Shown: positions 5,808 to 31,364 of the stretch, in pieces
How the letters are laid out: each line of letters opens with the position of its first letter
Numbering within the stretch: the first letter of the stretch is position 1
Assembly (NCBI GenBank): GCA_964391625.1
Contig: CAYMMP010000001.1
Span: 1-62,040, forward strand
Direction of reading: 5' to 3'
Source: an uncultured Thermoplasmatales archaeon
Lineage (GTDB): Archaea > Thermoplasmatota > E2 > DHVEG-1
Length of the DNA: 62,040 nucleotides
The notes under the pieces: generated by a model
Seen by the model: the letters and a program-made list of their open reading frames with translations, nothing else
What the model was told of the DNA's origin: nothing
Databases searched by the model: none
Translations under genes and position numbers: made by a program

Positions 5808-5817
5808 TTTTTCCACC

Positions 5818-10312: not shown

Positions 10313-10598
10313 CTTTAGCTCCTATTTTCTAATAATAATTATCACAAATATTCCATATCTCTTCTTTGTCACATTCAGAGATAGACTTTGTTTATCCTTT
10401 GGATATTTTTATGTACTCCTTAATCTTTTGTTCGACAATACTTTTTTTCAACTACTGAATGTGAAATAATACACAGATTTATAAAAACTTTTATAATAAA
10501 TATTTAAAAAAGTTAATTTTTAGATTATAGTTATTGGAAAAAATTATATTTATTGGTTGCATTTCAAATAAAATATTTGATACAATGTGAGGGATAAA

Positions 10599-11177
10599 AT
10601 GACCAAATACAATACAAAACTTGACAAGAGAGATAGAATAATATTAGAATTACTAAATAACACCCCTAGAATTTCTCAAGAGGAAATTGCAAAAAAGATA
10701 CAGCTCTCCCAACCTTCAGTGGCAATGCGAATTAAGAAACTCAGAGAAAGAGGGTTTATTGAGCCTATAATTGGAGTGAATATCAATAAAGTTGGGCTAT
10801 ATATGGCTCAAGTAAGAATCACAACTGCCAATACAACCAAAATTTTGAATACTTTTCGAGATTGCCCATTTTTTCTAAATGGATTTATTATTTCTGGAAA
10901 AGATAACTTATGTTTGCTGTTTGTAGGAGAAGATATTGCATCATTGGAAGCAATTATAGATGGTCATTTGAGACCAGACAAAGATGTTCAAAGCGTTAAT
11001 TTTGATATTATTGTTTCAAGTATAAAAGATTTTATTATGCCAATTAAAATTAGGGTAGATCCTGCCGACAAACCTCCATGCGGTATTAAAATGCAGTGTC
11101 AAGATTGCCCTTCATACCAAGGAGACAGATGTTTTGGATGCCCTGCCATGAAACAATACAAAGGTCTCTTTTGGTAA
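10599..11177 (+). CDS. Lrp/AsnC-like wHTH regulator with C-terminal five-Cys module
   Basis: The N-terminus LDKRDRIILELLNNTPRISQEEIAKKIQLSQPSVAMRIKKLRERGFI is Lrp/AsnC-type. The C-terminus is CGIKMQCQDCPSYQGDRCFGCP (C-x5-C-x2-C-x7-C-x2-CP). ATG 10599 is preceded by GAGGG; the track start GTG 10587 is less likely. Confidence 0.6.
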   Translation: MTKYNTKLDKRDRIILELLNNTPRISQEEIAKKIQLSQPSVAMRIKKLRERGFIEPIIGVNINKVGLYMAQVRITTANTTKILNTFRDCPFFLNGFIISGKDNLCLLFVGEDIASLEAIIDGHLRPDKDVQSVNFDIIVSSIKDFIMPIKIRVDPADKPPCGIKMQCQDCPSYQGDRCFGCPAMKQYKGLFW

Positions 11178-11315: not shown

Positions 11316-11747
11316 TTATAAAAAGATTTCATTAATGGCAGGATTTTTTCCCACCTCTTTGATTTTTCCTGTAAACTCGGTAGCCACCTTTGCATATTTT
11401 TGCCCTTCTGATGCGGAAACCCATGAAAGCCTAAAACGATTTGGCTCTAAACCAACCTCTTCAACAACTTTTTTTAACATCATAAATCGTCTACGGGTGT
11501 AATAATTTCCTTCTTGGTAATGACAATCTCCAGGGTGACAACCAGCCACAAGGACACCATCTGCACCGCCCAAGTATGCCCTTAAGATAAAAAGAGGATC
11601 AACTCTACTTGAGCACATAACTCTGATCGGCAAGATTGCAGGTGGGTACTGAAGTCTACTTGTTCCAGCTAGATCTGCTCCTGCATATGAGCACCAATTG
11701 CAAAGAAAGGCAAGTATCTTTGGGTTAAACTCTTCATCTTTCTTCAC
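11316..11747 (-). CDS. mvhD: MvhD/FlpD-type [2Fe-2S] electron-transfer subunit
   Basis: FLCNWCSYAGADLAGTSRLQYP...RVMCSSRVD...GADGVLVAGCHPGDCHY.EGN signature. The likely start is GTG 11747, preceded by AGGTGG; the track start GTG 11756 directly abuts the upstream TAG. Confidence 0.85.
   Translation of the reverse strand: MKKDEEFNPKILAFLCNWCSYAGADLAGTSRLQYPPAILPIRVMCSSRVDPLFILRAYLGGADGVLVAGCHPGDCHYQEGNYYTRRRFMMLKKVVEEVGLEPNRFRLSWVSASEGQKYAKVATEFTGKIKEVGKNPAINEIFL
11517..11567. repeat. 51-nt perfect repeat, copy 1 (inside mvhD 11316-11747)
   Basis: gtaatgacaatctccagggtgacaaccagccacaaggacaccatctgcacc is identical to 17196-17246, in the same orientation. Confidence 0.9.
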
Positions 11748-11756
11748 TCTAGCCAC

Positions 11757-12866
11757 CTATTTTTCAACTTCAGAAAATTCTTCTTTTTCAAATGTAACAA
11801 GAGGTAGAGGCTCATCTACATCTTTTCCTGGTATGTAATTAAACATTTTTTGGACGGATTCTCCCACTTTCTTGAAGATGGTTGCAAGTGGAATATCAAC
11901 AGGACAGACGTCATCACATGCACCACATCCTACACAGGAGATGCCGACATGTGTTAACCTCCCAAGCTGGTAATATAATACCCCTTGTGGAACTCTAACT
12001 CCCCCTCTTTTTTTAACTTCTGACTCATAACTAGAAGGCGAATATTCAGAATCAGGGGATTCGAACTCACACAGTTTGCAATAGCAGATAGGACACACTC
12101 TCATACAACCATGACAGCCAATACATTTTCCAAAAATGTCTACCAATCCACTTATCCCTTTCATCTCTGAATCGATTTTTTCAAAAAGTTTCTTCTCTTC
12201 TGCTTTTCTCTTATCGCGGAATTTATCTAGCGTCTCTTTATCTAGATCTTTTTCTAAGAACTCCCCTTTTATAACCTCAGCAAGCTCTTCTCCTTTTTTA
12301 GTATTAAGGAGCATCGTGAATTGTTTGTCAATATCTTTTTTTCCTATAAGATCAACAGTTATGTCTGCAGTGTATGGTATAAATTCCACACAACCTTTAC
12401 AAGCTGGTCGTATCTCTGCAGGGATCTCAGCTTTTTTAACTGCATCCCAATATTTGGAAAGGTTTTTTTCTATTGTACCATCTACCGCCATATTAGTTGG
12501 ATATACCCCGCCGCATGTTGAACTTATAATGAATAAATTTTCAAGGCTTCCCTGTTCACGTTTAATTAACTCTACAAAACCTCTTAATTCACATGGTTTC
12601 ACTACCGCAACAACTGGCTCCTTTGTGCTTCCTTTCAAGGTAAAACGCGAAAGAAGTTTACCAGCATTAACTGGCATCAATGGATAAAAAGGCACTGCAT
12701 TGTTTAGTTCTTCTGGTTCAGTAATAAGTGAATAAGCTATGGACCCTTCGTCGTTAATCTTTTTGAGTGTAAAGACTCCTTTAACTTTGCCATTTTTTAA
12801 AAGAAGTTTTAAGAACTCGAGGATACCTTGCTCAATATTTTTGTTTATTTTTAGAGCTTTGGTCAT
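11757..12866 (-). CDS. Fe-S oxidoreductase subunit, sulfhydrogenase-beta/AsrA/FlxB-C-like
   Basis: CIGCHGCMRVCPICYCKLC ... CVGCGACDDVCP, the same CxxCxxCxxxCPxCYC...CxxCxxCxxxCP layout as the HydB part of ORF 43448-45388. It has an ATGA overlap with the upstream gene and is a paralog of 12863-13999. Confidence 0.6.
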   Translation of the reverse strand: MTKALKINKNIEQGILEFLKLLLKNGKVKGVFTLKKINDEGSIAYSLITEPEELNNAVPFYPLMPVNAGKLLSRFTLKGSTKEPVVAVVKPCELRGFVELIKREQGSLENLFIISSTCGGVYPTNMAVDGTIEKNLSKYWDAVKKAEIPAEIRPACKGCVEFIPYTADITVDLIGKKDIDKQFTMLLNTKKGEELAEVIKGEFLEKDLDKETLDKFRDKRKAEEKKLFEKIDSEMKGISGLVDIFGKCIGCHGCMRVCPICYCKLCEFESPDSEYSPSSYESEVKKRGGVRVPQGVLYYQLGRLTHVGISCVGCGACDDVCPVDIPLATIFKKVGESVQKMFNYIPGKDVDEPLPLVTFEKEEFSEVEK

Positions 12867-13999
12867 TTTGCATCCTCCATCTCATGAAGCTCATCTTCTT
12901 TATAGCCCACCAGTGGAATTGGCTCGTCTAGACTTCTACCTGAAACATAATCAAATAAATCTTGCGTTTCATCAGCGACCATACTAAATATTTGAGCTAC
13001 GGGAATAGACATAGGACATGCATCTTCGCAAGATCCACATGATACGCATGAAAGGCTCATATGCATCATTCTACCCATATGGAAAAGAAGAGTGTCTGGT
13101 AAAAATCGAATGCTTCCCTTGCGTTCTGCCTGGTCAAGATAATCCTCAGACGTATGTTTTACTTTATCAGAATCGAAATAACATAGACGACAATAACAGA
13201 TTGGACAGACTTTCATACAATTGTGACAGTTTATACATTTACTAAATGTGTTGATTAGATTGTCAAGACCGGTTGTTTTGGCTTTTAAATCTTTATGGCT
13301 TTTTTCCCTCTTCTTATGCTTTTCCTCAAAAACGTCTTGTACTTTATTCCGCCAATCATCGACATTGTCTTTTAATTCTATGCCAAGTTTATTCATCACC
13401 TCGTTTCCTTTTTGACTATTTGAAACAATGAAAAAAGTACCTTTCTTTGCACCAAGAGTTCCTATATGAAGGTCTCCAGACACCATACTTGATTTATCAC
13501 ATATCTGGCACACCGGCCGCATTATTTTATCATCTGATCTCTTAACAGCATCTTCATATATCTTCATGCTTTTCTCAGGATCTTTAAGAAAATCAGAGAT
13601 AGGCATAACGCCTGGACAGTCCATGCTTATAAGAGTTATATTCTCTAAATTTGTTTGGTTAATCTTTGTTAATTCCACTGTTGCTCGTATCTCACAAGGC
13701 CGCATAACAGCGCCTATTTTCATATTTCCTTTTCCAAGTTTGGTCATACCAGAAATCGCCTTGGCTCCTTGAACGGACATAATCGGTGAAAGAGGGGCCG
13801 CATCCTTAAGAAGTGATTTATCCTCAATTAACACATATGCAAATGAATCGCCTGCTGGTACTCTCACAGGTACCAAAACAGCATCAAAAACTTTCTTATC
13901 CATCGCTTTTTTTAGGAACTCAATAATAGACTCATTTGTGTTCAGTTTAGTTGAAATGATTGCCCCTTTAGTTATAGGGGTACCTTCAACTTTGCTCAT
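12863..13999 (-). CDS. Fe-S oxidoreductase subunit, sulfhydrogenase-beta/AsrA/FlxB-C-like (paralog)
   Basis: CINCHNCMKVCPICYCRLC ... CVSCGSCEDACP. The N-terminal region (MRPCEIRATVEL) parallels VKPCELRGFVEL of the neighbouring paralog. There are ATGA overlaps on both sides. Confidence 0.6.
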   Translation of the reverse strand: MSKVEGTPITKGAIISTKLNTNESIIEFLKKAMDKKVFDAVLVPVRVPAGDSFAYVLIEDKSLLKDAAPLSPIMSVQGAKAISGMTKLGKGNMKIGAVMRPCEIRATVELTKINQTNLENITLISMDCPGVMPISDFLKDPEKSMKIYEDAVKRSDDKIMRPVCQICDKSSMVSGDLHIGTLGAKKGTFFIVSNSQKGNEVMNKLGIELKDNVDDWRNKVQDVFEEKHKKREKSHKDLKAKTTGLDNLINTFSKCINCHNCMKVCPICYCRLCYFDSDKVKHTSEDYLDQAERKGSIRFLPDTLLFHMGRMMHMSLSCVSCGSCEDACPMSIPVAQIFSMVADETQDLFDYVSGRSLDEPIPLVGYKEDELHEMEDAK

Positions 14000-15675
14000 T
14001 TAACAGCCTCCATAAGCTCTTGATAGATTTGATCGAAAGTAAAATGTTTAATAGTTGCTGCACCTGAAGGACAAGCAGCGGCACAATTTCCACATCCTCT
14101 GCATATTGCTTCATTTACAACAGATATCTTTTTTTCTTCGTTAAATGTAATAACACCATATGAACAGACAGATAGACATGTTTTACATCCCGTACAAAGC
14201 GATTCAGATATATGGGATACCTTTACTTCGGGTTCGATTTTTTTACCTGGCACGAGAGATGAAAGTATTTCACCAGCTGCAGCCTCTGATTGAACCATTG
14301 TCTCAGAGATGCTCTTTGGATCCTGGCTACTTCCGACAACGTATACTCCTTCTGTCGAAGTAGAAACAGGACCTAGCTTTTCGTGCTCTTCGGCAAAGAA
14401 ACCTCCATCGCCTTGGGACATTCCAATAATTTCAGCGAGTTTAGATGCATCAGATGTAGGTTCGATAGCTGATGAAAGTATCACCATATCAACTGATAGG
14501 TCGCTCTTTTTGCCAGTCTCGTCTTTATATTCAATATTTAATTTGCCATCCTTTTCTGTAATCTTAACATCCATTGACCTAACGAAATCAGTATTTCCTT
14601 TTGTTTGTTCATAGAACTTTTGATACGATTTTCCAGGGAGACATAAATCAGAATAAAAATTAGATACTTTAACATCTGGGATCTTGTTCGTAAGGTATCT
14701 AACAAATTTGAGAGAATACATGCAACAAATTTCTGAACAATATTTTTTTTCATTTCTGCCAACACAATGAATGATGGCAACTGATTTTGGTATTTTGCCG
14801 TTTTTGAGGGATATTTTCCCCGACAAATTCATTTTTTCAAATTCTAATGAATTAATGACGTTATCGAATTTCCCATATCCATATTGAGGAGTCTTTTTGG
14901 GATCAAATATGTTTGAACCAGTAGCCACCACTACTGCACCAACATCAAACTCAATAGGTTCCTCTTCTGTTTTTTTCTTTACTTTTATTTCAAAATTCCC
15001 AAAGAACCCTAAAACTTCTTCAACTTCACTATCAGTAAAGACTTTGATATTTTCATTATTATTCAAACTCTGAATTTTTTGATTTATGAGAGCAGAACTG
15101 GGCTGCATATCGGGAAAAGTTTTTTCAAAATTTGTTAATAGTCCACCTATTGACTGGGTTTTTTCAACAAGATAAACTTTTCTGTTCGCGCTTACAAGCT
15201 GTAAACTTGCCTCTATGCCGGCAATACCACCACCAATTACCAAAACATCAGTATTACATTCGATTTCTTTTTTCTCAAGGGGGGCATGATAACGAACTCG
15301 TCTAATAGCTGCTTTTGTTAAACGTATGGCTTTTTCTGTAGCCTCATCTTTATCTTCTGTAATCCAAGCACATTGCTCTCGGATATTGACAATTTGGAAA
15401 AGATATGGATTAATTCCTGCATTTTCACATACCTCCATAAAGGTTTTTTCATGTTGCTTTGGCGAGCATGCAGAAACCACCAAATGTGTTAGACCGTGTT
15501 TTTTAATTTCTTCTTCCAGGAATTTTTTACCATCTGACGAGCAGAGAAGCTTATATCGGTCAACAACTGCAACATCACTCATGGAAGAAACTGCATCAAT
15601 CACTTTGTCGATATCAACTTTTTCTGATATATTTGGGCCGCATTCACATATGTAGACGCCTATTTTCATTGTCAT
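13996..15675 (-). CDS. hdrA: HdrA-like flavoprotein, QmoB-like module (N-terminal Cys domain, FAD domain, C-terminal 2x[4Fe-4S])
   Basis: Starts MTMKIGVYICECGPNISEKVD (HdrA N-terminal domain). It has VLVIGGGIAGIEASL (FAD), IHCVGRNEKKYCSEICCMY, and C-terminal CTGCKTCLSVCS and CRGCGNCAAACP. The ATG at 15675 overlaps the upstream TGA (ATGA). The 36-codon upstream extension in the track is rejected. Confidence 0.8.
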   Translation of the reverse strand: MTMKIGVYICECGPNISEKVDIDKVIDAVSSMSDVAVVDRYKLLCSSDGKKFLEEEIKKHGLTHLVVSACSPKQHEKTFMEVCENAGINPYLFQIVNIREQCAWITEDKDEATEKAIRLTKAAIRRVRYHAPLEKKEIECNTDVLVIGGGIAGIEASLQLVSANRKVYLVEKTQSIGGLLTNFEKTFPDMQPSSALINQKIQSLNNNENIKVFTDSEVEEVLGFFGNFEIKVKKKTEEEPIEFDVGAVVVATGSNIFDPKKTPQYGYGKFDNVINSLEFEKMNLSGKISLKNGKIPKSVAIIHCVGRNEKKYCSEICCMYSLKFVRYLTNKIPDVKVSNFYSDLCLPGKSYQKFYEQTKGNTDFVRSMDVKITEKDGKLNIEYKDETGKKSDLSVDMVILSSAIEPTSDASKLAEIIGMSQGDGGFFAEEHEKLGPVSTSTEGVYVVGSSQDPKSISETMVQSEAAAGEILSSLVPGKKIEPEVKVSHISESLCTGCKTCLSVCSYGVITFNEEKKISVVNEAICRGCGNCAAACPSGAATIKHFTFDQIYQELMEAVK

Positions 15676-16979
15676 GCAGTTATATCTCCCTCCATTTTGG
15701 TTTTGGTTGCTGATAGTATTTTTCCTACTGCTGCATTTGCCTGTGAAACTGAATTTTGAATATTTTTTGGCCCTTGACAACATCCAGCAGCAAATATTCC
15801 TGGTTTTGATGTAACAACAGAAAAAACATCTTGATTTTCGCCTTTAAAAAACCCATATTCGTCAAGAGATACACCAAGAATCTTAGCAAGTTCAGAAGCA
15901 TCAGATTTAGGTTCAATAGCTGGTGCAAGTATTACCATATCAACCAGGAGATTGCTCTTTTTACCATTTTCATCTTTGTAATTGACTGTTATTTCCTTTC
16001 CCGATTTTGTAACTTCAACTACATTAGCGCGAATCATTTGAGTTCCTGTTTCTTTCATCTTTTCATAGAATTTTTGATGAGATTTCCCAGGGATGCAAAG
16101 ATCTGTATAAAATTCTGAAATCTTAATTTCAGGTATTTTGGATTTTAGATAATGATTAAATTTAAGTGAATATAAACAACATACTGCTGAGCAATATCCT
16201 TTTTCATCTCTACCAACACAATGAATGATAGCAGCTGATTTTGGAGTTTTTCCATTTTTTAAAAAAATCTGCCCTTCTGTCGGGCCATTGGAGGCATATA
16301 ATCTTTCGAACTCCATAGCAGTATACACATCATCAATTTTTCCGTATCCGTATTTAGGGGTTTTTTTAGAATCGAATATATCATATCCAGTAGCTACAAT
16401 AATGGCTTCAACTCCAAGTTCAATGCTTTCATCTTTTTGTTTAAAATCAATAGCTTCAAACGCACAAGCTTCTTGGCAAGCGTTACAACTTTTTCCTTTG
16501 AAATGAAGACAATGTTCAGTATCGATCATAGGTACATTTGGAAGTGCACCGGCACATGGAACATAGATGGCTTTCCTTTCACTAAGTCCCTCTTCAAACT
16601 CGTTTTTTAAACTAACTGGGCATGGATCAAAACAAGCATTGCATCCGATACAGTTTTGTAGATCCACATATCTAGCTTTTTTACGAATTTTTACAGTAAA
16701 ATTCCCAAGAGATCCTTTAACCTCTTCAACCTCTGCAAGCATTAGCAGGTTGATGTTTTTATCCTGCAATAGCTCTTGTTGCACTGGCGATACCATACAT
16801 GTAGAGCATTCCATATTAGAAAAAACTTCTTCAAATTTTATTACAGAGCCGCCAGTATATGATGTTTTCTCGACAAGATGTACCCTTCTTCCGGATTTGG
16901 AGAGCAGCAAACTTGCCTCAATCCCTGCTATACCTGCTCCGATAACCAATACATCTGTGTGTTGTTTTTTTTCACCCAT
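15672..16979 (-). CDS. hdrA: HdrA-like flavoprotein, QmoA-like module (FAD domain with inserted ferredoxin)
   Basis: DVLVIGAGIAGIEASL, NMECSTCMVSP, inserted CIGCNACFDPCP and CNACQEACAFEA, IHCVGRDEKGYCSAVCCLY. It has no HdrA N-terminal domain and no C-terminal ferredoxin. Confidence 0.8.
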   Translation of the reverse strand: MGEKKQHTDVLVIGAGIAGIEASLLLSKSGRRVHLVEKTSYTGGSVIKFEEVFSNMECSTCMVSPVQQELLQDKNINLLMLAEVEEVKGSLGNFTVKIRKKARYVDLQNCIGCNACFDPCPVSLKNEFEEGLSERKAIYVPCAGALPNVPMIDTEHCLHFKGKSCNACQEACAFEAIDFKQKDESIELGVEAIIVATGYDIFDSKKTPKYGYGKIDDVYTAMEFERLYASNGPTEGQIFLKNGKTPKSAAIIHCVGRDEKGYCSAVCCLYSLKFNHYLKSKIPEIKISEFYTDLCIPGKSHQKFYEKMKETGTQMIRANVVEVTKSGKEITVNYKDENGKKSNLLVDMVILAPAIEPKSDASELAKILGVSLDEYGFFKGENQDVFSVVTSKPGIFAAGCCQGPKNIQNSVSQANAAVGKILSATKTKMEGDITA

Positions 16980-16994
16980 GATTTCATCTTCATT

Positions 16995-17420
16995 TCATAG
17001 CGATGTTTTTTTTCTAAGAGGATTTGCCCCCATCTTTTTTATTTTCTCATTGAACTCATTAACAACATCTGCAAACCTCTGGCCTTCTGATGCAGAAACC
17101 CATGAAAGGCGTAGACGTTCTGATTCTAGGCCAAGTCCCTCAACGACTTTTTTTAATACAGCAAATCGTCTGCGAGCATAATAGTTTCCTTCTTCGTAAT
17201 GACAATCTCCAGGGTGACAACCAGCCACAAGGACACCATCTGCACCACGAAGAAATGCTGTTTCGACAAGAACCGGATCGATTCTGCTGGTACACATCAC
17301 TCTAATGGGTGTAAAAGAAGAAGGTATTTTCAGTTTACTAGTTCCGGCAAGATCTGCTCCTGCATATGAACACCAATTGCAAAGGAAGCCAACTATTCGG
17401 GGTTTGAATTCTTCAGCCAT
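16995..17420 (-). CDS. mvhD: MvhD/FlpD-type [2Fe-2S] electron-transfer subunit
   Basis: MAEEFKPRIVGFLCNWCSYAGADLAGTSKL...RVMCTSRID...GADGVLVAGCHPGDCHYEEGN. ATG 17420 is preceded by GAGGA. Confidence 0.85.
   Translation of the reverse strand: MAEEFKPRIVGFLCNWCSYAGADLAGTSKLKIPSSFTPIRVMCTSRIDPVLVETAFLRGADGVLVAGCHPGDCHYEEGNYYARRRFAVLKKVVEGLGLESERLRLSWVSASEGQRFADVVNEFNEKIKKMGANPLRKKTSL
17196..17246. repeat. 51-nt perfect repeat, copy 2 (inside mvhD 16995-17420)
   Basis: Identical to 11517-11567. The flanks on both sides are only roughly 80% similar by eye. Confidence 0.9.
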
Positions 17421-17493
17421 TTTTTTCCTCATAAGCAAAAATATTTTGCTCTTTTAGACTATTTTAGATGCCTTTTTTCCAAATAAAAAGGAT

Positions 17494-17718
17494 TTAAAAT
17501 TGTATTTGTGCTTTGTACTTACCATCACCTTCATCTGCACAGACAAGAAGGGTCTTATTCATTCTGGCACACCATGCTTCCACATCTTTTGGGAAAGAAT
17601 GGCAGTCAGCTATCACTTCAAGCATGTCGCCAGGTTGTAATTCTTTAGCTTTAGCTGCAACTTTAAGTATTGGTTGCGGGCATTTTAATCCTGACGTATC
17701 AAGTGTATGTGTTGCCAT
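17494..17718 (-). CDS. tusA: TusA/SirA-family sulfur-carrier protein
   Basis: 74 aa. LDTSGLKCPQPILKV matches the D.rGl.CP.P.l active-site motif. Confidence 0.8.
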   Translation of the reverse strand: MATHTLDTSGLKCPQPILKVAAKAKELQPGDMLEVIADCHSFPKDVEAWCARMNKTLLVCADEGDGKYKAQIQF

Positions 17719-17731
17719 ATTTTTACCTCCT

Positions 17732-18088
17732 TTAAAATGAAAAGGTTATCTGAGCGTCATTTATATCTGCCATAAATGAAGTCGCTCCAACAATTTCAAG
17801 ATCATCTCTAAGTTCTTCTTTTGTTAAATCTTTTGCTTCCAATGCTAGTTCACAAAGAAGTAATCTGCCTCCAAGAGTCTTTACTCCCTCGACTAGCTCT
17901 GCCATATCAGGCATACCTTTACCAGTTATTTTCTCAAGCTCTCCTTTTTTCAAAGCTGGTGCAGCACCAGGGGTAAAAAATAAAACAACCTCATCACCAG
18001 AAGCCGCCGCACTAGAAGCCAAGATAAAAGTTGGGTAAAGATTTTTGCTTTCTGCTCCGTTACATACAATAGCTACTTTTTTACTCAT
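17732..18088 (-). CDS. DsrE/DsrF/DrsH-like sulfur-relay family protein
   Basis: 118 aa. KKVAIVCNGAESKNLYPTFILASSAAASGDEVVLFFT shows a Rossmann-like DsrE fold pattern, with a conserved Cys in RLLLCELA. A strong AGGAGG lies 6 nt upstream of the ATG. Confidence 0.65.
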   Translation of the reverse strand: MSKKVAIVCNGAESKNLYPTFILASSAAASGDEVVLFFTPGAAPALKKGELEKITGKGMPDMAELVEGVKTLGGRLLLCELALEAKDLTKEELRDDLEIVGATSFMADINDAQITFSF

Positions 18089-18107
18089 AATGTGCCTCCT
18101 GTTAGGT

Positions 18108-18121
18108 CAATATTCATATTG
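18108..18121. promoter_or_regulatory. Palindrome CAATAT-TC-ATATTG between TATA-like box and dsrE-like start
   Basis: Perfect 6-2-6 inverted repeat located between ttatata (minus strand, ~18122-18128) and the AGGAGG/ATG of the dsrE-like gene. AT-rich palindromes arise easily by chance here. Confidence 0.2.
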
Positions 18122-18220
18122 TATATAATTCTTGTGGTTTTTTATTAATTTAGAATAGAAAAGATAAGATATTATTTTTAATTTGAAATCTTTATATATT
18201 CCTATTGAATACTCTTTTTA

Positions 18221-18784
18221 GTGAAACTTATTGACAACATAGATAAAAAGATCATTACATTAATTAATAATAATTGGGAGCAGGGTGCTACAAAAATTGG
18301 GCGAAAATTGGGCTTATCTCATACTGCAGTCCGGTCAAGATTGGAACGTCTTAAAAGAGATATTATAAAAGTAAATTGCAATGTCGATCTTGAGAGATTA
18401 GGGCTAAAACTATTTCTTGTTTGCCTTGAAGCACGATTTAAAGATAAAGTTGTTGGTCATGTAAAAAATTGCCCAAAAATAATAAACTATTTTGACACAT
18501 ATGGCGAATATAATTTTATAATACTGGCTGCTGCTGAGAATATGAACACCATGGAGTCAATGATAGAACAATGTTTTTCATTCAACTTTACAGACATTAC
18601 TAAATACAACGTAATACCCCTCACAAATTCCCCCTCCACATATCAACCCATATCATTCTATTCAGAAGATGAAAAAAAGAAGATGAAGTGTGATTTTGAA
18701 ACAGAATGTTTTCAGTGTAAATCATTCAAAGAGGATAGATGTGTGGGATGCCCATTGCAAGAGGGATATCAAGGAATACTATAG
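18221..18784 (+). CDS. Lrp/AsnC-like wHTH regulator with C-terminal five-Cys module (paralog of 10599-11177)
   Basis: IDKKIITLINNNWEQGATKIGRKLGLSHTAVRSRLERLKRD at the N-terminus. The C-terminus is CDFETECFQCKSFKEDRCVGCP, with the same C-x5-C-x2-C-x7-C-x2-CP spacing. The GTG start lies ~25 nt downstream of tttatata (18191-18198), so the mRNA may be leaderless. Confidence 0.6.
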   Translation: MKLIDNIDKKIITLINNNWEQGATKIGRKLGLSHTAVRSRLERLKRDIIKVNCNVDLERLGLKLFLVCLEARFKDKVVGHVKNCPKIINYFDTYGEYNFIILAAAENMNTMESMIEQCFSFNFTDITKYNVIPLTNSPSTYQPISFYSEDEKKKMKCDFETECFQCKSFKEDRCVGCPLQEGYQGIL

Positions 18785-18837: not shown

Positions 18838-19836
18838 TTACCAATAACTGATTTTAGAGGTTTCTCCGATAGGCCCCAGTTTTTTCAGATCATTAGCAAA
18901 ATCAGCAACAGCACTTTCAAGTTTTGCAGATTCTCTGCTGGAAAACCACCCCATCCTAATCCGTTCTGGCTCAATGTTAATCTGTTTGAGTGAGTCTTTA
19001 AACAATAAAATTTTTTTCCTAGCCCTATAATTTCCATCATGTTCGCATTCATTTGGTGGACAGCCAGCAACCATGACACCCCATGCACCTTCTTTAAATG
19101 AATGCAATATCAGCTCTGGAGTCACACGACCTGAGCACAATGTAACGATAACCCCATACGTTGTATTTATCAACGTTGTCGATTCGCTCAATTGCAATCC
19201 CGGGAACAATGACCAGTTGCAAGCGAAAACAATAATTTTTGTATTGTTTGTTTTAAGAAAGCTTGAAATTTGAGTTTTTAACTCTGACGGCGTTATACCA
19301 AACCCTTCTTTTTGAGAGGGCACTCCTGAAGGGCATGTTGCCACGCACAAACCACAGCCCTCACACTTAGCTCTATCAACAGTAACCTTTCTATTTCCAA
19401 TATCATCTTCCGTGAATGATAAGGCCTCTGACTTACACACAGAGATACACATTCCGCAAGCACTACATAGCTCTTCAGAAACTTTGGTTGTGGTGCCTTC
19501 TGAATCAAAACCTGCATCAATAAAATCTGCTCTTGCGTCAGTGAAAATATCTGTGATTGGAACACCTGCTGAGCAATTGTCACTGCACTGATTGCAATAA
19601 AAACATTGGAATATTTTTTCTGATATTTCCTGACTTGGTTTAAATTTATCAGAGAGTAATCCATGTAGAGTTACTAGTTTGCCCCTAGGAGCATTTGACT
19701 CCCAATTAAACGCTTTATATAAAGGGCAAAGCTCATAACAATAACCGCATCGTATACATTTGTTAAGCTCATTCTCCCACTTTTTTAGCCGTTTGAACTT
19801 GGTTTTTGTGGTAGGCTCAACCGTTTTTGTTCCCAT
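18838..19836 (-). CDS. GlcF/HdrD-N-type ferredoxin + 2x[4Fe-4S] ferredoxin + MvhD-like domain fusion protein
   Basis: CIRCGYCYELCPLY...APRGK, CFYCNQCSDNCSAGVP, CSACGMCISVC, CEGCGLCVATCP, then FACNWS...LCSGRV...GCPPNECEHDGN. It is a paralog of 45461-46423. Confidence 0.7.
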   Translation of the reverse strand: MGTKTVEPTTKTKFKRLKKWENELNKCIRCGYCYELCPLYKAFNWESNAPRGKLVTLHGLLSDKFKPSQEISEKIFQCFYCNQCSDNCSAGVPITDIFTDARADFIDAGFDSEGTTTKVSEELCSACGMCISVCKSEALSFTEDDIGNRKVTVDRAKCEGCGLCVATCPSGVPSQKEGFGITPSELKTQISSFLKTNNTKIIVFACNWSLFPGLQLSESTTLINTTYGVIVTLCSGRVTPELILHSFKEGAWGVMVAGCPPNECEHDGNYRARKKILLFKDSLKQINIEPERIRMGWFSSRESAKLESAVADFANDLKKLGPIGETSKISYW

Positions 19837-20146: not shown

Positions 20147-20887
20147 TCACAATGCTTTGTAAACCGTAAGAAGTGCAAGAATTATGATAAGAACTGAAAG
20201 CCCGATCTCCAACCACTTTGGCTTTGTTTTCAATGATATTTTGCTTCCGGTCCTTGCACCAAGTATTGACCCTGCAAGAACAGATAAAGCAGGTAGCCAG
20301 ATTATATTTCCACGGTGCCAGTATATACTTATTGCAAAGATTGCTGTAAAAATTGTCACAAACAGAGAAGTAGCAATTGCTTTGTGTATGTCAAGTTTCA
20401 TGGCTCTAAGAAAAGGAGGAAAAAGAGAACCTCCACTGCCACCACGCATACCCGTGATAAGATTTAAAAAAAACGAGAAACCTACAATGTTATACCTATT
20501 GGGATTGATTTTCTCTGATAGTGTAGGTGCTATCTTGTCCAGATAGATCGCCATGACTGTAATTATAGCAGTTATAACAAATAGGATTGCTAAGACAATA
20601 TTTGAGATCAACCCAACAAGAAAAGCTCCTGTTATAGACCCTATTGTGCCACCAATGATAACATAGACCGCGATTTTTCTATCAATATTCTTCCTATGAG
20701 TAGCTGCACCTATCAATGAGGAGAAAGGTATAACGAAGAGATTTATCCCAAAAGCGGATATTAGGGGGAGCCCTGCAAGATTGAGCAGGGGAATCCTAAC
20801 AGAGCCGCCACCAATCCCAAATATCCCACTCATAAGACCAGCGATAAGCCCAATAATAAAATAAATTATTATTAGTGTAATTTCCAT
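20147..20887 (-). CDS. TSUP (TauE/SafE) family anion transporter
   Basis: Hydrophobic ~246 aa with two GxGGG-type repeats (GIFGIGGGSVRIPLL and MRGGSGGSLFPPFL). ATG 20887 is preceded by GAGGG; the track start TTG 20902 is less likely. Confidence 0.8.
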   Translation of the reverse strand: MEITLIIIYFIIGLIAGLMSGIFGIGGGSVRIPLLNLAGLPLISAFGINLFVIPFSSLIGAATHRKNIDRKIAVYVIIGGTIGSITGAFLVGLISNIVLAILFVITAIITVMAIYLDKIAPTLSEKINPNRYNIVGFSFFLNLITGMRGGSGGSLFPPFLRAMKLDIHKAIATSLFVTIFTAIFAISIYWHRGNIIWLPALSVLAGSILGARTGSKISLKTKPKWLEIGLSVLIIILALLTVYKAL

Positions 20888-21084
20888 AGTGTTAACCCTC
20901 AATTATATCTCAAGATCATTGATTTCCTCTAGAACTTGCCTGGTTTTAATTCTTTGATGATACTGTTGCATCCTCCTTTTAGTATATGTATATTTTTATA
21001 GCAATATACCATCAGAGATGCATATCTTATCGTCCTCCTCACATCGTTAGATCAAAAGATCCCCAGGCTTTTCTTTTTCTATAT

Positions 21085-27568: not shown

Positions 27569-27605
27569 TTTATTTTCCTCCGTTGTATATCACATATACC
27601 TTCTA

Positions 27606-30019: not shown

Positions 30020-30029
30020 TGGTAGTGTC

Positions 30030-30119: not shown

Positions 30120-30124
30120 AGATT

Positions 30125-30493: not shown

Positions 30494-30504
30494 ATTTTCA
30501 CCTT

Positions 30505-31360: not shown

Positions 31361-31364
31361 AATT

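What the first reader, a model, noticed from the sequence alone, without database searches (positions are those of the whole stretch)
11316..18088. dsrE-tusA-mvhD-hdrA(split)-2x hydB/flxB-like-mvhD operon: an HdrA/MvhD electron-bifurcation core wired to sulfur-carrier proteins, with no HdrBC
Eight co-directional minus-strand genes form one tight unit. The gaps at the front are 13, 73 and 15 nt. ATGA start/stop overlaps occur at 15672-15675, 13996-13999 and 12863-12866.

Content read from the sequence:
- a DsrE-like protein (Cys in LLCELA)
- TusA (CPQP motif)
- MvhD
- a QmoA-like HdrA (FAD motif plus inserted 2x[4Fe-4S])
- a QmoB-like HdrA (N-terminal CxCG domain plus C-terminal 2x[4Fe-4S])
- two paralogous Fe-S proteins with the CxxCxxCxxxCPxCYC...CxxCxxCxxxCP layout of sulfhydrogenase-beta/AsrA/FlxB-C
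- a second MvhD

What is missing matters as much. The unit has no CCG-domain HdrB/HdrD, no HdrC, no FlxA/HydG-type NAD(P)H module, and no hydrogenase or formate dehydrogenase.

Known relatives differ in composition: FlxABCD-HdrABC of sulfate reducers, QmoABC, and the sulfur-oxidiser sHdr system with TusA/DsrE3/LbpA.

Inference: sulfane sulfur carried as a persulfide on TusA/DsrE could be the high-potential substrate of an HdrA-based bifurcating or confurcating complex that does not use the noncubane CCG site. I am not aware of a characterised system with this composition.
Basis: partly seen in the sequence, partly recalled or inferred. Interest (0 to 1): 0.8.

Follow-up and report, generated by a model that had tools for sequence, protein, structure and literature searches.

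The report
Sulfur-carrier-linked HdrA/MvhD redox operon
An uncultured sediment archaeon carries a tightly packed eight-gene operon, also found in more than ten uncultured phyla, that joins two small sulfur-carrier proteins to an electron-splitting flavoprotein core of the methanogen type; it most likely supplies electrons to release sulfide from carrier-bound sulfur, and no enzyme of this make-up has been characterised.

Summary
Eight co-directional minus-strand genes (18088 to 11316) encode a DsrE-family carrier, TusA, MvhD, two HdrA paralogues, two paralogous Fe-S proteins and a second MvhD.

Two labels need correcting:
- The "split hdrA" is a complementary heterodimer pair, as proposed for ANME tandem HdrA.
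- The "hydB/flxB-like" proteins are ElpB/FdhB-like, the donor-arm subunit of methanogen Elp-Hdr and Fdh-Hdr complexes. Their FAD motif is degenerate.

The gene order recurs in 47 of 80 related loci, spanning Thermoplasmata, Dehalococcoidia, WOR-3, Cloacimonadota, Aminicenantes and others. TusA is present in about 38 of 39 tandem-HdrA loci with upstream sequence, and in 0 of 20 loci with a fused HdrA. YeeE sulfur transporters and rhodaneses sit beside or inside the operon in many lineages.

TusA has two invariant cysteines at the positions essential in E. coli YeeD.

Best reading: an HdrBC-less HdrA/MvhD complex that passes electrons to carrier-bound sulfane sulfur or thiosulfate. The catalytic site, the electron donor and bifurcation itself are inferred, not shown.

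I found no characterised equivalent; one MAG paper noted the linkage and read it as sulfur oxidation. I class it as a new variant of a known kind.

The parts
17732..18088 (-). DsrE-family sulfur carrier (118 aa), soluble, closest to DsrE2B-type; single functional Cys79 in LLCELA
   Evidence: Pfam DrsE_2 7.6e-15 and DsrE 5.3e-9. NCBIfam DsrE2, N-terminal part only, 3.9e-12 and below cutoff. PDB 2qs7 3e-5 with the Cys aligned. Cys79 is invariant in 38 cluster-linked orthologues. AGGAGG lies upstream of the ATG.
17494..17718 (-). TusA-family sulfur carrier (74 aa) with two invariant cysteines: Cys13 (CPxP) and Cys39 (ADC), a YeeD/TsuB-like layout
   Evidence: Pfam TusA 1.2e-19. E. coli TusA 1e-10 with Cys13 = Cys19 and Cys39 = Asp45. 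Cys13 and Cys39 are 100% conserved in 44 orthologues. AF2 pLDDT 88, with both Cys in the loops just before helices 1 and 2. EcYeeD C13 and C39 are both essential (PMC11073785). 70-90% identical across domains.
16995..17420 (-). MvhD-1 ([2Fe-2S] electron connector, 141 aa; the ORF extends to 17438 from a TTG)
   Evidence: Pfam FlpD 2.5e-53. Gene callers on identical contigs chose the 141-aa form. GAGG lies 8 nt upstream of the ATG. 70% identical to MvhD-2.
15672..16979 (-). HdrA paralogue A (435 aa): FAD/TrxR domain plus inserted 2x[4Fe-4S] ferredoxin domain. It has no N-terminal domain and no C-terminal ferredoxin domain, and keeps Cys58/Cys61 (M. wolfeii Cys194/Cys197).
   Evidence: PDB 5odc_A 3.4e-89, residues 10-421 against 146-561. 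NCBIfam HdrA2 2e-122. K409 and E356 equivalents are present.
13996..15675 (-). HdrA paralogue B (559 aa): N-terminal Fe-S domain, FAD/TrxR domain and C-terminal 2x[4Fe-4S] ferredoxin domain. It lacks the inserted ferredoxin domain and lacks Cys194/Cys197.
   Evidence: PDB HdrA 4e-129 in two stretches. NCBIfam HdrA2 5e-155 in two stretches that skip the inserted domain. Pairwise alignment shows ECSTC replaced by QPSSA and the inserted domain missing. ATGA overlap with the upstream gene.
12863..13999 (-). ElpB/FdhB-like Fe-S protein 1 (378 aa): FrhB-family N-domain with a 4-Cys cluster, plus CxxCxxCxxxCPxCxCxxC...CxxCxxCxxxCP. The canonical FAD-pyrophosphate motif is degenerate.
   Evidence: PDB profile hits 9t1s_M 2.4e-38 (full length), 8rvu_E 1.3e-34, 7bkb_E 6e-25. 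Foldseek TM 0.68 to ElpB and 0.69 to FdhB. Pfam FrhB_FdhB_C 2.5e-9, no FrhB_FdhB_N. Residues 15-27 are the least conserved stretch.
11757..12866 (-). ElpB/FdhB-like Fe-S protein 2 (369 aa), a paralogue of the previous gene (35% identity); its N-terminal motif is partly retained
   Evidence: BLASTP 4e-79 to Fe-S protein 1. Pfam FrhB_FdhB_C 7.9e-10. Conservation profile.
11316..11756 (-). MvhD-2 (146 aa, GTG start directly after the TAG of the preceding gene). It is not universal in the family: it is absent or moved to the front of the operon in some lineages.
   Evidence: Pfam FlpD 3.3e-53. Position varies across loci.
18221..18784 (+). Divergently transcribed Lrp/AsnC-type regulator with a C-terminal 5-Cys motif (C-x5-C-x2-C-x8-C-x2-CP); the likely operon regulator in Thermoplasmata
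   Evidence: Pfam HTH_AsnC-type 2e-8. Conserved in the same divergent position in L009, L014, L016, L017 and L019, with the Cys motif intact.
18089..18220 (.). AT-rich 132-nt divergent intergenic region with TATA-like boxes; probable promoter region for dsrE and the regulator
   Evidence: Read directly from the sequence; no experimental support.
10587..11177 (+). Second Lrp/AsnC/MarR-like regulator with a similar C-terminal Cys motif, convergent at the 3' end of the operon; membership uncertain
   Evidence: Pfam HTH_24 2.3e-13, HTH_AsnC 1.8e-10. Cys motif. Found only on contigs of the same population.

Best explanation
The operon encodes a soluble, HdrBC-less HdrA-type iron-sulfur flavoprotein complex together with its own sulfur relay.

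Core (inferred from the domain maps):
- The core is an obligate heterodimer of two complementary HdrA paralogues.
[quoted passage not shown] In methanogen Hdr the C-terminal domain is where MvhD feeds in.
- Paralogue A supplies the Cys197-equivalent ligand and the inserted ferredoxin domain, which in methanogen Hdr is the ferredoxin-facing exit.
- Together they build one complete methanogen-type bifurcation path instead of two.

Arms (inferred):
- MvhD ([2Fe-2S]) connects this core to the two ElpB/FdhB-like polyferredoxin subunits, as MvhD/ElpC does in the Fdh-Hdr and Elp-Hdr complexes.
- These subunits appear to have lost, or at least changed, the flavin/F420 site.

Substrate supply (inferred):
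- DsrE and a two-cysteine, YeeD-like TusA receive sulfane sulfur or thiosulfate. In many relatives this comes through co-encoded YeeE transporters and rhodaneses.
- They present it as a Cys-persulfide or thiosulfonate.

Reaction (proposed, not demonstrated):
- The complex supplies the two electrons that release sulfide and regenerate the carrier thiols.
- One possible route is a Cys13-Cys39 di- or trisulfide on TusA, in the manner of DsrC.
- This electron flow would be coupled to oxidation or reduction of ferredoxin.

Shown here: gene content, domain complementarity, conserved synteny, invariant cysteines, the sulfur-related neighbourhood.
Inferred: complex formation, the reductive direction, the donor (H2 via a trans-encoded Mvh, ferredoxin, or F420H2/NAD(P)H), the site of S-S cleavage, and whether the reaction is bifurcating.
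For: - Families and domain maps.
- The N-domain/Cys197 complementarity is the pattern that led Chadwick et al. to propose HdrA heterodimers (PMC9012536). Both paralogues keep the K409/E356 equivalents linked to bifurcating HdrA (PMC12054007).
- ElpB (FdhB-like) plus ElpC (MvhD) is an experimentally and structurally established donor arm of HdrA (PMC12350162). ElpB and FdhB are the top fold matches, with near-equal scores.
- Synteny: 47 of 80 loci are of the tandem-HdrA type. About 38 of 39 with upstream sequence carry TusA and about 35 of 39 carry DsrE, against 0 of 20 in the fused-HdrA type. tusA-mvhD gaps are 0-16 nt in many bacteria.
- YeeE/Sulf_transp occurs in 15 loci and rhodanese in about 11. 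They are co-oriented and lie inside the operon in L036, L041, L058, L076 and L087.
- 2-Cys CsoR/CstR-like repressors (no His) lie next to the operon in 8 loci, mostly Dehalococcoidia, divergently upstream in 7; ArsR-type regulators occur elsewhere.
- DsrE Cys79 and TusA Cys13/Cys39 are invariant. EcYeeD needs C13 and C39, and the electron source for YeeD-dependent thiosulfate decomposition is stated to be unknown (PMC11073785).
- TauE-family exporters (20147-20902, 23232-24056) and a SLAC1/TehA channel lie in the window.
Against: - No recognisable disulfide- or persulfide-reducing site is present: no CCG domain, and no CxxC next to a flavin.
- The only flavins left may be those of HdrA, if the ElpB-like proteins have lost FAD.
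- The electron donor is not encoded in the unit.
- Thiosulfate reduction (E0' about -400 mV, from general knowledge) is not a high-potential half-reaction, so classic bifurcation would work only with S0, polysulfide, persulfide or a protein disulfide.
- This window itself has no YeeE or rhodanese.
- HdrBC lies nearby in 7-8 of 47 loci and elsewhere in this window, so a conventional HdrBC exit cannot be excluded.
- The 73-nt tusA-mvhD gap has a T5 run and TATA-like sequence.
- All evidence is comparative. There are no expression or biochemical data, and every host is uncultured.
Confidence: 0.45

Rival explanations
1. General-purpose bifurcating module with a substrate encoded elsewhere. The HdrA heterodimer, MvhD and ElpB-like arm would be an Elp-like donor/acceptor module (F420H2, NAD(P)H or ferredoxin). 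It would work with HdrBC, or another partner, encoded elsewhere in the genome. DsrE/TusA would be accessory only, for example for repair or sulfuration of the many Fe-S clusters, or for redox buffering.
For: - hdrC-hdrB, mvhGA-mvhD and a 1084-aa hdrA are in the same window.
- HdrB/HdrC genes are adjacent in 7-8 of 47 loci and NiFe hydrogenase genes in about 10.
- Both HdrA paralogues keep the TrxR-domain cluster that contacts HdrC in methanogens.
- A sister architecture (fused HdrA-MvhD-FeS1-FeS2-MvhD) works without TusA/DsrE.
- The window is rich in Fe-S assembly genes such as NifU, Mrp/NBP35 and FeS_assembly_P.
Against: - The resident hdrCB is adjacent to its own hdrA and mvh genes.
- TusA/DsrE are the first genes of the operon. 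They show near-perfect co-occurrence with the tandem form, with gaps of 0-16 nt.
- YeeE and rhodanese are inserted between hdrA and the Fe-S genes in several lineages, which is hard to explain for a mere accessory role.
- TusA is the most conserved protein of the set.
Confidence: 0.2
2. Reactive-sulfur-species detoxification rather than energy metabolism. The same chemistry (reductive removal of persulfide or polysulfide sulfur) would serve thiol homeostasis in sulfidic sediments. It would be induced by persulfide-sensing repressors, with no energy coupling.
For: - CsoR-family repressors with the two Cys but no His (a CstR-like fingerprint) lie next to the operon in 8 loci.
- ArsR-type regulators occur in others. 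The ArsR family includes sulfane-sulfur sensors such as sHdrR and SoxR (PMC12423496, listed).
- The window neighbourhood holds thioredoxin, peroxiredoxin-like, glutaredoxin-fusion and TauE genes.
- Hosts are mostly fermenters of sulfidic sediments (record titles).
Against: - A complex of this size, with bifurcation-type HdrA (K409/E356 kept, ferredoxin domains kept), is an expensive solution for detoxification.
- YeeE import genes suggest deliberate uptake of sulfur compounds.
- That the regulators respond to persulfide is inferred from motifs only.
Confidence: 0.15
3. Oxidative direction, sHdr-like. Sulfane sulfur delivered by TusA/DsrE would be oxidised and the electrons passed to ferredoxin or other carriers. 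Williams et al. 2021 suggested this for Cloacimonadota MAGs.
For: - TusA plus DsrE plus rhodanese sets accompany sHdr systems (PMC11094781).
- A MAG study read an Hdr-TusA-TST-transporter cluster in Cloacimonadota as sulfur oxidation (PMC8542988).
Against: - The operon and scanned flanks hold no sHdrB1/B2 (CCG), sHdrC1/C2, LbpA or lipoate-ligase genes, and none of these was found with the operon in the window.
- sHdrA (6tjr) is a much weaker match than methanogen HdrA.
- There is no site able to make sulfite.
- Oxidising sulfane sulfur to reduce ferredoxin is energetically unfavourable without a high-potential acceptor.
Confidence: 0.07
4. The linkage has no functional meaning. TusA/DsrE would act in tRNA thiolation or cofactor biosynthesis (JGI names the TusA "tRNA 2-thiouridine synthesizing protein A") and would merely be neighbours of an Hdr-like operon.
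For: Automatic names given by JGI.
Against: - The gene order is conserved across Archaea and more than ten bacterial phyla.
- TusBCDE/MnmA homologues were not looked for specifically; the loci were profiled only with the window's own proteins plus YeeE, rhodanese, CsoR and Pyr_redox queries, and none appeared among the recurrent flanking families annotated.
- The cluster travels as a unit and is flanked by integrase fragments in L087.
Confidence: 0.03

Closest known systems
[quoted passage not shown]
   Same: - An HdrA flavoprotein core.
- MvhD/ElpC as a [2Fe-2S] connector.
- An FdhB/ElpB-type subunit with four [4Fe-4S] sites as the arm. These are the best sequence and fold matches for the two Fe-S proteins (PMC12350162).
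   Different: - No HdrB/HdrC (the CCG site) and no ElpA/FdhA.
- Two ElpB-like paralogues instead of one.
- The FAD-pyrophosphate motif GECGGAVT is not kept.
- HdrA is a heterodimer of complementary paralogues, not a homodimer.
- DsrE, TusA, YeeE and rhodanese are attached.
- Hosts are non-methanogens and mostly bacteria.
Tandem HdrA clusters of ANME archaea (HdrA5/6 and 12/13; FdhB-only clusters of ANME-1), Chadwick et al. 2022
   Same: [quoted passage not shown]
- Some of those clusters carry an FdhB homologue without FdhA, plus MvhD (PMC9012536).
   Different: - They are described only by genomics and linked to CoM-S-S-CoB/F420 metabolism.
- That paper mentions no TusA or DsrE (0 occurrences).
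- I could not check whether the ANME-1 clusters are orthologous.
FlxABCD-HdrABC of sulfate reducers
   Same: MvhD-like FlxD plus Fe-S subunits feeding HdrA. A Flx-like cluster (long HdrA-MvhD-FeS(328 aa)-Fer4_22 protein-FAD/NAD protein) sits next to the operon in several loci. Its 328-aa Fe-S protein is a distant relative of Fe-S protein 1 (82-90 bits).
   Different: - No FlxA-type NAD(P)H module, no Fer4_22 (HydB/AsrA-type) subunit and no HdrBC in the unit.
- The identification of that neighbouring cluster as Flx rests on domain architecture and on my memory of Flx; it was not checked against the D. vulgaris sequences.
QmoABC of sulfate reducers and green sulfur bacteria
   Same: Two different HdrA-like flavoproteins working together, an MvhD-type module, and a role in sulfur metabolism.
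   Different: - Here MvhD is a separate protein.
- There is no membrane QmoC and no aprBA neighbour.
- ElpB-like subunits and sulfur carriers are present.
- The comparison with Qmo is from general knowledge; no Qmo sequence was tested here.
sHdr-LbpA sulfur-oxidising system with TusA/DsrE3/rhodanese
   Same: An Hdr-related complex genetically tied to TusA, DsrE-family proteins and rhodaneses (PMC11094781).
   Different: - No sHdrB1/B2, sHdrC1/C2 or LbpA.
- The HdrA here is the multi-cluster methanogen type rather than the single-cluster sHdrA (6tjr is a weaker hit).
- The DsrE is a short DsrE2B-like form, not DsrE3.
YeeE-YeeD (TsuA-TsuB) thiosulfate uptake and decomposition
   Same: - A TusA-family protein with the CPxP Cys13 and a second Cys39, both essential in E. 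coli YeeD.
- YeeE genes are linked to the operon in many loci (PMC11073785).
   Different: - The NCBIfam YeeD equivalog model is matched only weakly (19 bits against a cutoff of 147.5).
- No YeeE in this window.
- No redox complex is known to be attached to E. coli YeeD.

Membership tests
HdrA (bifurcating heterodisulfide reductase subunit A) | TrxR-fold FAD domain with the TrxR-domain [4Fe-4S] Cys motif (C-x-G-x-R-D...C-x3-CC) | tested here: met
   Both paralogues align over the whole TrxR domain to 5odc_A, 8rvu_a and 7bkb_A (3e-89 and 4e-129) and keep HCVGR(D/N)EK.YCSxxCC.
HdrA (bifurcating heterodisulfide reductase subunit A) | Lys409/Glu356 pair at the flavin, reported to mark type I bifurcating HdrA (PMC12054007) | tested here: met
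   LEFERL...CCLYSLK in paralogue A and LEFEKM...CCMYSLK in paralogue B align with E356 and K409 of 5odc_A.
HdrA (bifurcating heterodisulfide reductase subunit A) | N-terminal cluster domain completed by Cys197 of the partner protomer, plus inserted and C-terminal ferredoxin domains | tested here: met
   Met only by the pair together. Paralogue B has the N-domain and the C-terminal Fd but lacks C194/C197 and the inserted Fd. Paralogue A has C58/C61 (= C194/C197) and the inserted Fd only. This matches the heterodimer proposal in PMC9012536.
HdrABC-type heterodisulfide reductase complex | HdrB with two CCG domains (non-cubane [4Fe-4S] disulfide-reducing site), and HdrC | tested here: not met
   No CCG or HdrC-type protein among the eight genes. 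CCG and HdrC genes exist at 51221-52460 next to another hdrA.
Elp/Fdh donor arm (ElpB/FdhB + ElpC/MvhD) | FrhB-family fold with the N-domain 4-Cys cluster and a C-terminal poly-Cys ferredoxin part | tested here: met
   Profile hit to 9t1s_M at 2.4e-38 over residues 11-353. Cys102/128/164/167 and the CxxCxxCxxxCPxCxCxxC motif align with FdhB. Foldseek TM 0.68-0.69 to 8rvu_E and 7bkb_E.
Elp/Fdh donor arm (ElpB/FdhB + ElpC/MvhD) | FAD bound at the N-terminus of helix 1, the most conserved region of the FrhB family (PMC3591093), allowing F420H2 oxidation | tested here: inconclusive
   ElpB/FdhB read GECGGAVT. Fe-S protein 1 reads NTNESII, and this stretch is its least conserved (0.36 against a mean of 0.64). 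Fe-S protein 2 reads IEQGIL, partly similar. Pfam FrhB_FdhB_N is not detected. Cofactor content needs biochemistry.
Elp/Fdh donor arm (ElpB/FdhB + ElpC/MvhD) | Partner ElpA/FdhA (molybdopterin-family) subunit | tested here: not met
   No such gene in the unit or in the scanned window.
MvhD/FlpD | FlpD domain with the conserved Cys set for a [2Fe-2S] cluster | tested here: met
   Pfam FlpD 2.5e-53 and 3.3e-53, full-length 1-123/123. CNWC...C...C-x4-C is visible in both sequences.
TusA family sulfur carrier | CPxP motif with the catalytic Cys just before helix 1, and a two-layer alpha/beta fold | tested here: met
   Pfam 1.2e-19. Aligns with E. coli TusA Cys19. Invariant in 44 orthologues. AF2 gives a beta-alpha-beta-alpha-beta-beta model with pLDDT 88.
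YeeD/TsuB subtype of TusA | Second conserved Cys (C39 in EcYeeD) and a partnership with YeeE | tested here: inconclusive
   Cys39 is invariant with the same 26-residue spacing (PMC11073785). YeeE is linked in 15 of 80 loci but absent from this window. The NCBIfam YeeD model scores 19 bits, far below its cutoff of 147.5.
DsrE family | DsrE fold with the active-site Cys at the DsrE Cys78-equivalent position | tested here: met
   Pfam DrsE_2 and DsrE above their cutoffs. The Cys aligns with the Cys of 2qs7 (FACSTTME against LLCELALE). Invariant in 38 orthologues. Subgroup (DsrE2B-like or other) not resolved.
sHdr-LbpA sulfur oxidation system | shdrC1B1AHC2B2 core plus LbpA lipoate-binding protein | tested here: not met
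   None of these genes is in the operon, and no LbpA or sHdr-type core set was found in the window's Pfam scans.
FlxABCD-HdrABC | FlxA (FAD/NAD(P)H, HydG/AsrB-like) and a Fer4_22 HydB-like Fe-S subunit | tested here: not met
   Neither domain is in the unit. Both occur in a separate neighbouring cluster in other loci and in the HydBG fusion at 43448-45400.
QmoABC | Membrane subunit QmoC, an MvhD domain fused to QmoB, and an aprBA neighbourhood | tested here: not met
   MvhD is encoded separately, and no membrane subunit or apr genes are in the unit or the scanned flanks. The Qmo features listed are from general knowledge.

The most novel reading that the evidence does not exclude
This is a previously unrecognised, horizontally mobile class of cytoplasmic sulfane-sulfur or thiosulfate reductase.

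- An asymmetric HdrA heterodimer would bifurcate electrons (for example from H2 via Mvh, or from another mid-potential donor) to ferredoxin and to a protein-bound persulfide or di/trisulfide on a two-cysteine TusA.
- TusA would thus play the part that CoM-S-S-CoB plays in methanogens and DsrC plays in sulfate reducers.
- S-S cleavage would take place at an Fe-S or flavin site that is not the HdrB CCG cluster.
- This would give many uncultured sediment fermenters an energy-conserving way to use S0, polysulfide or thiosulfate, and would supply the missing electron route for YeeD-type thiosulfate decomposition.
Probability: 0.25. Interest if true: 0.85.

Novelty: new variant of a known kind. Interest (0 to 1): 0.68.

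Why it matters
HdrA/MvhD modules are the best-understood flavin-based electron-bifurcating machines. Every characterised one ends in a CCG-type HdrB/HdrD, or in another defined enzyme such as MetF or BamB. Here a conserved, widely transferred operon replaces that end with sulfur-carrier proteins.

If the carriers are the substrate, three things follow:
- It would define a new terminal chemistry for HdrA complexes.
- It would give a molecular basis for cryptic S0, polysulfide or thiosulfate use by abundant uncultured sediment lineages (MBG-D/Thermoprofundales-like archaea, marine Dehalococcoidia, WOR-3, Cloacimonadota, Aminicenantes).
- It would address the question of where the electrons for TusA/YeeD-dependent sulfide release come from. 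That question is stated as open in PMC11073785.

It would also provide a marker gene set for annotating sulfur cycling in metagenomes. At present these genes are labelled "heterodisulfide reductase", "formate dehydrogenase beta" and "tRNA 2-thiouridine synthesizing protein A".

Tried and rejected
- **HydB/AsrA/FlxB identity of the two Fe-S proteins.** Rejected. Fer4_22 is not significant, while the true HydB-type proteins in the window and in other loci score 1e-27 to 1e-31 for it. P. furiosus SHI beta is only a distant fold match (TM 0.35).
- **"Split" hdrA.** Rejected. Both genes have complete FAD domains.
- **Bacterial promoter/terminator scan of the operon.** Counts do not exceed shuffled expectation and nothing falls in the 73-nt gap. 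The scan does not model archaeal signals, so it is uninformative here.
- **tRNA and Rfam scans of the window.** Nothing found.
- **Measuring the Cys13-Cys39 distance in the TusA model.** Not possible, because coordinates are not exposed.
- **Literature.** Ten full-text searches found no paper describing HdrA + MvhD + TusA/DsrE clusters, apart from a passing remark on Cloacimonadota. A bioRxiv HdrA evolution paper mentions none of the terms. The deep-sea Chloroflexi paper describes a different cluster, HdrBCA-MvhD-FdhBA.
- **The 437-aa "FeS2-MvhD fusion" on contig L004.** It is an internal deletion or assembly variant, not a read-through.
- **LbpA, YeeE or rhodanese in the window.** None found.
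- **A cultured host.** None among the 80 loci returned; all are MAGs or SAGs.

Full report
**1. The observation**

The ORF list shows eight co-directional minus-strand genes from 18088 down to 11316:

| Gene | Coordinates | Length |
|---|---|---|
| dsrE-like | 17732-18088 | 118 aa |
| tusA | 17494-17718 | 74 aa |
| mvhD-1 | 16995-17420 (ORF to 17438) | 141 aa |
| hdrA-like A | 15672-16979 | 435 aa |
| hdrA-like B | 13996-15675 | 559 aa |
| Fe-S protein 1 | 12863-13999 | 378 aa |
| Fe-S protein 2 | 11757-12866 | 369 aa |
| mvhD-2 | 11316-11756 | 146 aa |

- The TAG of Fe-S protein 2 directly abuts the GTG of mvhD-2.
- Independent gene calls on identical metagenome contigs agree.
- Pfam and NCBIfam confirm every family.
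- The unit contains no CCG/HdrB, HdrC, NAD(P)H module, hydrogenase or molybdopterin subunit.

**2. Host and surroundings**

- The nearest genomic relatives are Thermoplasmata/Thermoplasmatales MAGs from marine sediments, including the MBG-D-type SM1-50. Identical contigs occur in several metagenome assemblies.
- Two Lrp/AsnC-type regulators with a C-terminal 5-Cys motif flank the operon.
- Upstream lie an HdrC-like-ferredoxin-MvhD fusion, two TauE-family exporters and radical-SAM/SPASM genes.
- At 41-56 kb the window also carries a conventional hdrA(1084 aa)-hdrC-hdrB-mvhG-mvhA-hycI-mvhD set, a GlcD-like oxidase with a second Fe-S-MvhD fusion, and a HydBG-fusion/HydD/HydA group-3b-like hydrogenase.
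- "No HdrBC" is therefore a property of the operon, not of the genome.

**3. What the parts are**

*The two HdrA-like proteins* are paralogues, not halves.
- Each has its own GxGxxG/FAD TrxR domain and TrxR-domain cluster motif.
- Against M. wolfeii HdrA (5odc), protein A covers residues 146-561. That is the TrxR domain plus the inserted ferredoxin domain. It keeps Cys58/Cys61, equivalent to Cys194/Cys197.
[quoted passage not shown] It lacks the inserted domain and reads QPSSA where A reads ECSTC.
- This is the N-domain/Cys197 complementarity from which Chadwick et al. inferred obligate HdrA heterodimers in ANME (PMC9012536).
- Both proteins keep the Glu356/Lys409 equivalents associated with bifurcating HdrA (PMC12054007).

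*The two Fe-S proteins* are 35% identical to each other and are ElpB/FdhB-like.
- A profile of protein 1 hits F420-type FdhB chains over their full length: 9t1s_M at 2.4e-38, 8rvu_E at 1.3e-34 and 7bkb_E at 6e-25.
- The AF2 model has a confident N-terminal 240 residues. [quoted passage not shown]
- FrhB and Fsr follow. P. furiosus sulfhydrogenase beta is only a remote match (TM 0.35).
- In Elp-Hdr, ElpB (FAD plus four [4Fe-4S]) and ElpC (MvhD) form the F420H2-oxidising donor arm of HdrA (PMC12350162).

*The flavin site is doubtful.*
- ElpB and FdhB read GECGGAVT there.
- Fe-S protein 1 reads NTNESII, and this stretch is the least conserved part of its orthologue alignment: 0.36 top-residue frequency against a mean of 0.64.
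- Fe-S protein 2 keeps a partial motif.
- Pfam FrhB_FdhB_N is not detected in either protein.

*The sulfur carriers.*
- DsrE is a short soluble form. Its single functional Cys79 aligns with the Cys of S. solfataricus 2qs7.
- TusA aligns with E. coli TusA, with Cys13 matching Cys19.

**4. Comparative genomics**

- A scan of one genome per GTDB species with an alignment of Fe-S protein 1 found 298 related stretches. The best 80 were fetched.
- I profiled these with the window's own proteins. 47 loci have the tandem-HdrA architecture in the same gene order.
- These 47 come from Thermoplasmata, a Methanomassiliicoccaceae MAG, Dehalococcoidia, WOR-3, Cloacimonadota, Aminicenantes, Aerophobetes, Stahlbacteria, Zixibacteria, TA06, a Clostridia MAG and unclassified bacteria.
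- Among tandem-type loci with enough upstream sequence, about 38 of 39 carry tusA and about 35 of 39 carry dsrE directly in front of mvhD. Gaps are often 0-16 nt.
- A sister architecture is a single roughly 980-aa fused HdrA followed by MvhD-FeS1-FeS2-MvhD. It occurs in Anaerolineae, Ignavibacteria, Acidobacteriota, Gemmatimonadota and others, and has tusA/dsrE in 0 of 20 loci.
- These counts are not phylogenetically independent, but the association spans both domains.

Recurrent neighbours point the same way:
- YeeE/Sulf_transp occurs in 15 loci and rhodanese in about 11. They are always co-oriented and lie upstream, downstream or inserted between hdrA-B and Fe-S protein 1 (L036, L041, L058, L076).
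- CsoR-family repressors lie next to the operon in 8 loci, mostly Dehalococcoidia, and are divergently oriented upstream in 7 of them. They keep the two Cys but have no His at the copper-ligand position, which is a CstR-like fingerprint.
- ArsR-type regulators occur elsewhere.
- NiFe hydrogenase genes are nearby in about 10 loci, HdrB/HdrC in 7-8, and HydB-type genes in 9.

Two independent metagenome contigs with precomputed Pfam calls confirm the composition:
- L087 reads DsrE-TusA-FlpD-HdrA-HdrA-TusA-Sulf_transp-Rhodanese-FeS-FeS and is flanked by integrase fragments.
- L088 reads ArsR-DsrE-TusA-FlpD-HdrA-HdrA-FeS-FeS.

Further points:
- The second MvhD is not universal.
- The Fe-S protein family is small: 198 clusters at E<=1e-30 among 1.84 billion representatives.
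- TusA is strikingly conserved, 70-90% identical from Thermoplasmata to Cloacimonadota, against about 54% for Fe-S protein 1. Together with the integrase-flanked copy, this suggests transfer as a unit.

**5. Carrier cysteines**

- In cluster-linked orthologues, DsrE Cys79 is invariant (38 sequences).
- TusA Cys13 (CPxP) and Cys39 (ADC) are both invariant (44 sequences). Cys50 and Cys60 are about 90% conserved.
- E. coli TusA has Asp at the Cys39 position.
- E. coli YeeD/TsuB has exactly C13 and C39, and both are required for YeeE-dependent thiosulfate use.
- YeeD binds thiosulfate on the CPxP Cys and releases sulfite and sulfide. The authors state that the electron route is unknown (PMC11073785).
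- The AF2 model of the window's TusA (pLDDT 88) places both Cys in the loops just before helices 1 and 2.

**6. Most likely mechanism**

*Shown:* composition, domain complementarity, conserved linkage to sulfur carriers and importers, and invariant cysteines.

*Inferred:*
- The two HdrA paralogues form one asymmetric core with a single complete path: MvhD, then the C-terminal Fd domain, then FAD, then the N-domain cluster, then the inserted Fd domain, then ferredoxin.
- MvhD links this core to the ElpB-like subunits. These could form two arms, or one heterodimeric arm in which the second paralogue takes the place of ElpA/FdhA.
- DsrE and the YeeD-like TusA bring in sulfane sulfur or thiosulfate.
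- The complex provides the electrons that release sulfide and reset the carriers, possibly through a Cys13-Cys39 di- or trisulfide in the manner of DsrC.

*Open:*
- Whether this is true bifurcation. That would need a high-potential acceptor such as persulfide, polysulfide or a protein disulfide, and a mid-potential donor such as H2 via Mvh. The alternative is plain ferredoxin-dependent reduction; thiosulfate cleavage has a low potential.
- The site of S-S cleavage, which is the largest gap. Candidates are the cluster exposed by the degenerate flavin pocket of an ElpB-like subunit, a retained flavin in Fe-S protein 2, or the TrxR-domain cluster of HdrA that normally faces HdrC.

**7. Rivals**

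1. A general Elp-like module that uses HdrBC encoded elsewhere, with TusA/DsrE as accessories.
2. The same reductive chemistry used for reactive-sulfur detoxification under CstR/ArsR-type control.
3. sHdr-like sulfur oxidation, as suggested for a Cloacimonadota MAG (PMC8542988). This is unlikely, because sHdrB/C and LbpA are absent and the HdrA is of the methanogen type.
4. Coincidental linkage to tRNA-thiolation genes, which the conserved synteny all but excludes.

**8. Comparison with the known, and novelty**

- The complex works most like the Elp-Hdr and Fdh-Hdr complexes (HdrA + MvhD + FdhB-like arm) and like the proposed ANME tandem-HdrA heterodimers.
- It fails the membership tests for HdrABC, FlxABCD-HdrABC, QmoABC and sHdr-LbpA, because defining subunits are missing.
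- Ten full-text searches found no description of this gene set. The exception is the passing Cloacimonadota remark, which read it as oxidative. The library does not cover all subscription journals, so a prior description cannot be fully excluded.
- I classify it as a new variant of a known kind: an HdrA/MvhD electron-bifurcation-type complex with a new terminal partner set.

**9. Verdict**

It remains inference.
- Two of the component labels needed correction.
- Interest is moderately high: a specialist in anaerobic bioenergetics or sulfur metabolism would find the conserved DsrE-TusA/HdrA-heterodimer/ElpB-like combination unexpected and directly testable.

Noticed in passing
window 5097-6840 (-): A thermosome (Cpn60_TCP1) gene is in two overlapping ORFs in different frames: 340 aa covering profile positions 1-317, and 255 aa covering 314-449. 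The second ORF ends in a glutaredoxin domain. The same arrangement appears on independent contigs L001 and L002. It could be a frameshift, a programmed frameshift, or a real split with an unusual thermosome-glutaredoxin fusion.
   Followed up: no
window 18221-18784 (+) and 10587-11177 (+): Two Lrp/AsnC-type regulators carry a C-terminal extension with five conserved cysteines (C-x5-C-x2-C-x8-C-x2-CP). The first is conserved divergently upstream of the operon in five other Thermoplasmata loci. It may be an Fe-S, Zn or sulfur-sensing domain on an Lrp scaffold.
   Followed up: partly
window 18838-19836 (-) and 45461-46423 (-): Two paralogous fusion proteins have the layout HdrC-like 2x[4Fe-4S] + ferredoxin + MvhD. 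The second sits next to a GlcD-like FAD-linked oxidase (46425-47858) and the mvh/hdr genes, which suggests a lactate/glycolate-type dehydrogenase plugged into HdrA through a fused MvhD adapter. Similar Fe-S-MvhD fusions follow the operon in Dehalococcoidia.
   Followed up: partly
window 41401-45400 (-): A 650-aa HydB-HydG fusion (Fer4_22 + FAD_binding_6 + NAD_binding_1 + DHODB Fe-S) lies next to NiFe small and large subunits and a HycI protease, forming a group-3b sulfhydrogenase-like enzyme. In close relatives (L007, L011, L012) the fused hydBG-like gene lies directly downstream of the DsrE-TusA-HdrA operon on the same strand, followed by a NiFe small-subunit gene in L007 and L011.
   Followed up: partly
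window 52529-55783 (-): A 1084-aa double HdrA with two FAD/TrxR domains is followed by hdrC (117 aa), hdrB (297 aa), mvhG, mvhA, hycI and mvhD. This is a type II / HdrL-like fused HdrA in a Thermoplasmata genome.
   Followed up: no
window 21219-23222 (-), flanked by TauE genes at 20147-20902 and 23232-24056: A complete radical-SAM/SPASM gene (481 aa) is directly preceded by a 185-aa ORF that matches only the C-terminal part of a radical-SAM domain. This could be a truncated duplicate, a pseudogene or an unrecognised recoding. A 38-aa Thioredoxin_3-like ORF was called nearby on L001.
   Followed up: no
L087 9046-9357 and 19853-20137: In one metagenome contig the whole DsrE-TusA-MvhD-HdrA-HdrA-TusA-YeeE-rhodanese-FeS-FeS block is bracketed by two phage-integrase gene fragments. 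This is consistent with a mobile island, and with the unusually high inter-domain identity of TusA.
   Followed up: no
L004 4570-5883: One population variant or assembly joins Fe-S protein 2 (...DEPLPL) directly to the middle of MvhD-2 (DGVLVAGCHPGDC...). This deletes the C-terminus of the former and the first Cys ligands of the latter. It is probably an assembly artefact or a deletion allele, not a natural fusion.
   Followed up: yes
L081 12620-20448; also L024, L050, L051, L065, L077, L082: A second, Flx-like cluster often lies immediately beside the operon in bacteria. It reads: roughly 1000-aa HdrA, MvhD, a 328-aa Fe-S protein distantly related to Fe-S protein 1, a Fer4_22 HydB-like protein, a FAD/NAD HydG-like protein, an HdrC-like protein and a NuoE-like protein.
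   Followed up: partly
window 26396-32198 (-): A dense block of Fe-S-cluster assembly-type genes: aminotransferase, NifU_N, two MinD/Mrp-like ATPases with ferredoxin inserts, a Nitro_FeMo-Co (NifX/NifB-C-like) protein, DUF134, DUF5320 and an NBP35/Mrp ParA-type protein. This fits a genome region devoted to Fe-S-rich redox enzymes.
   Followed up: no
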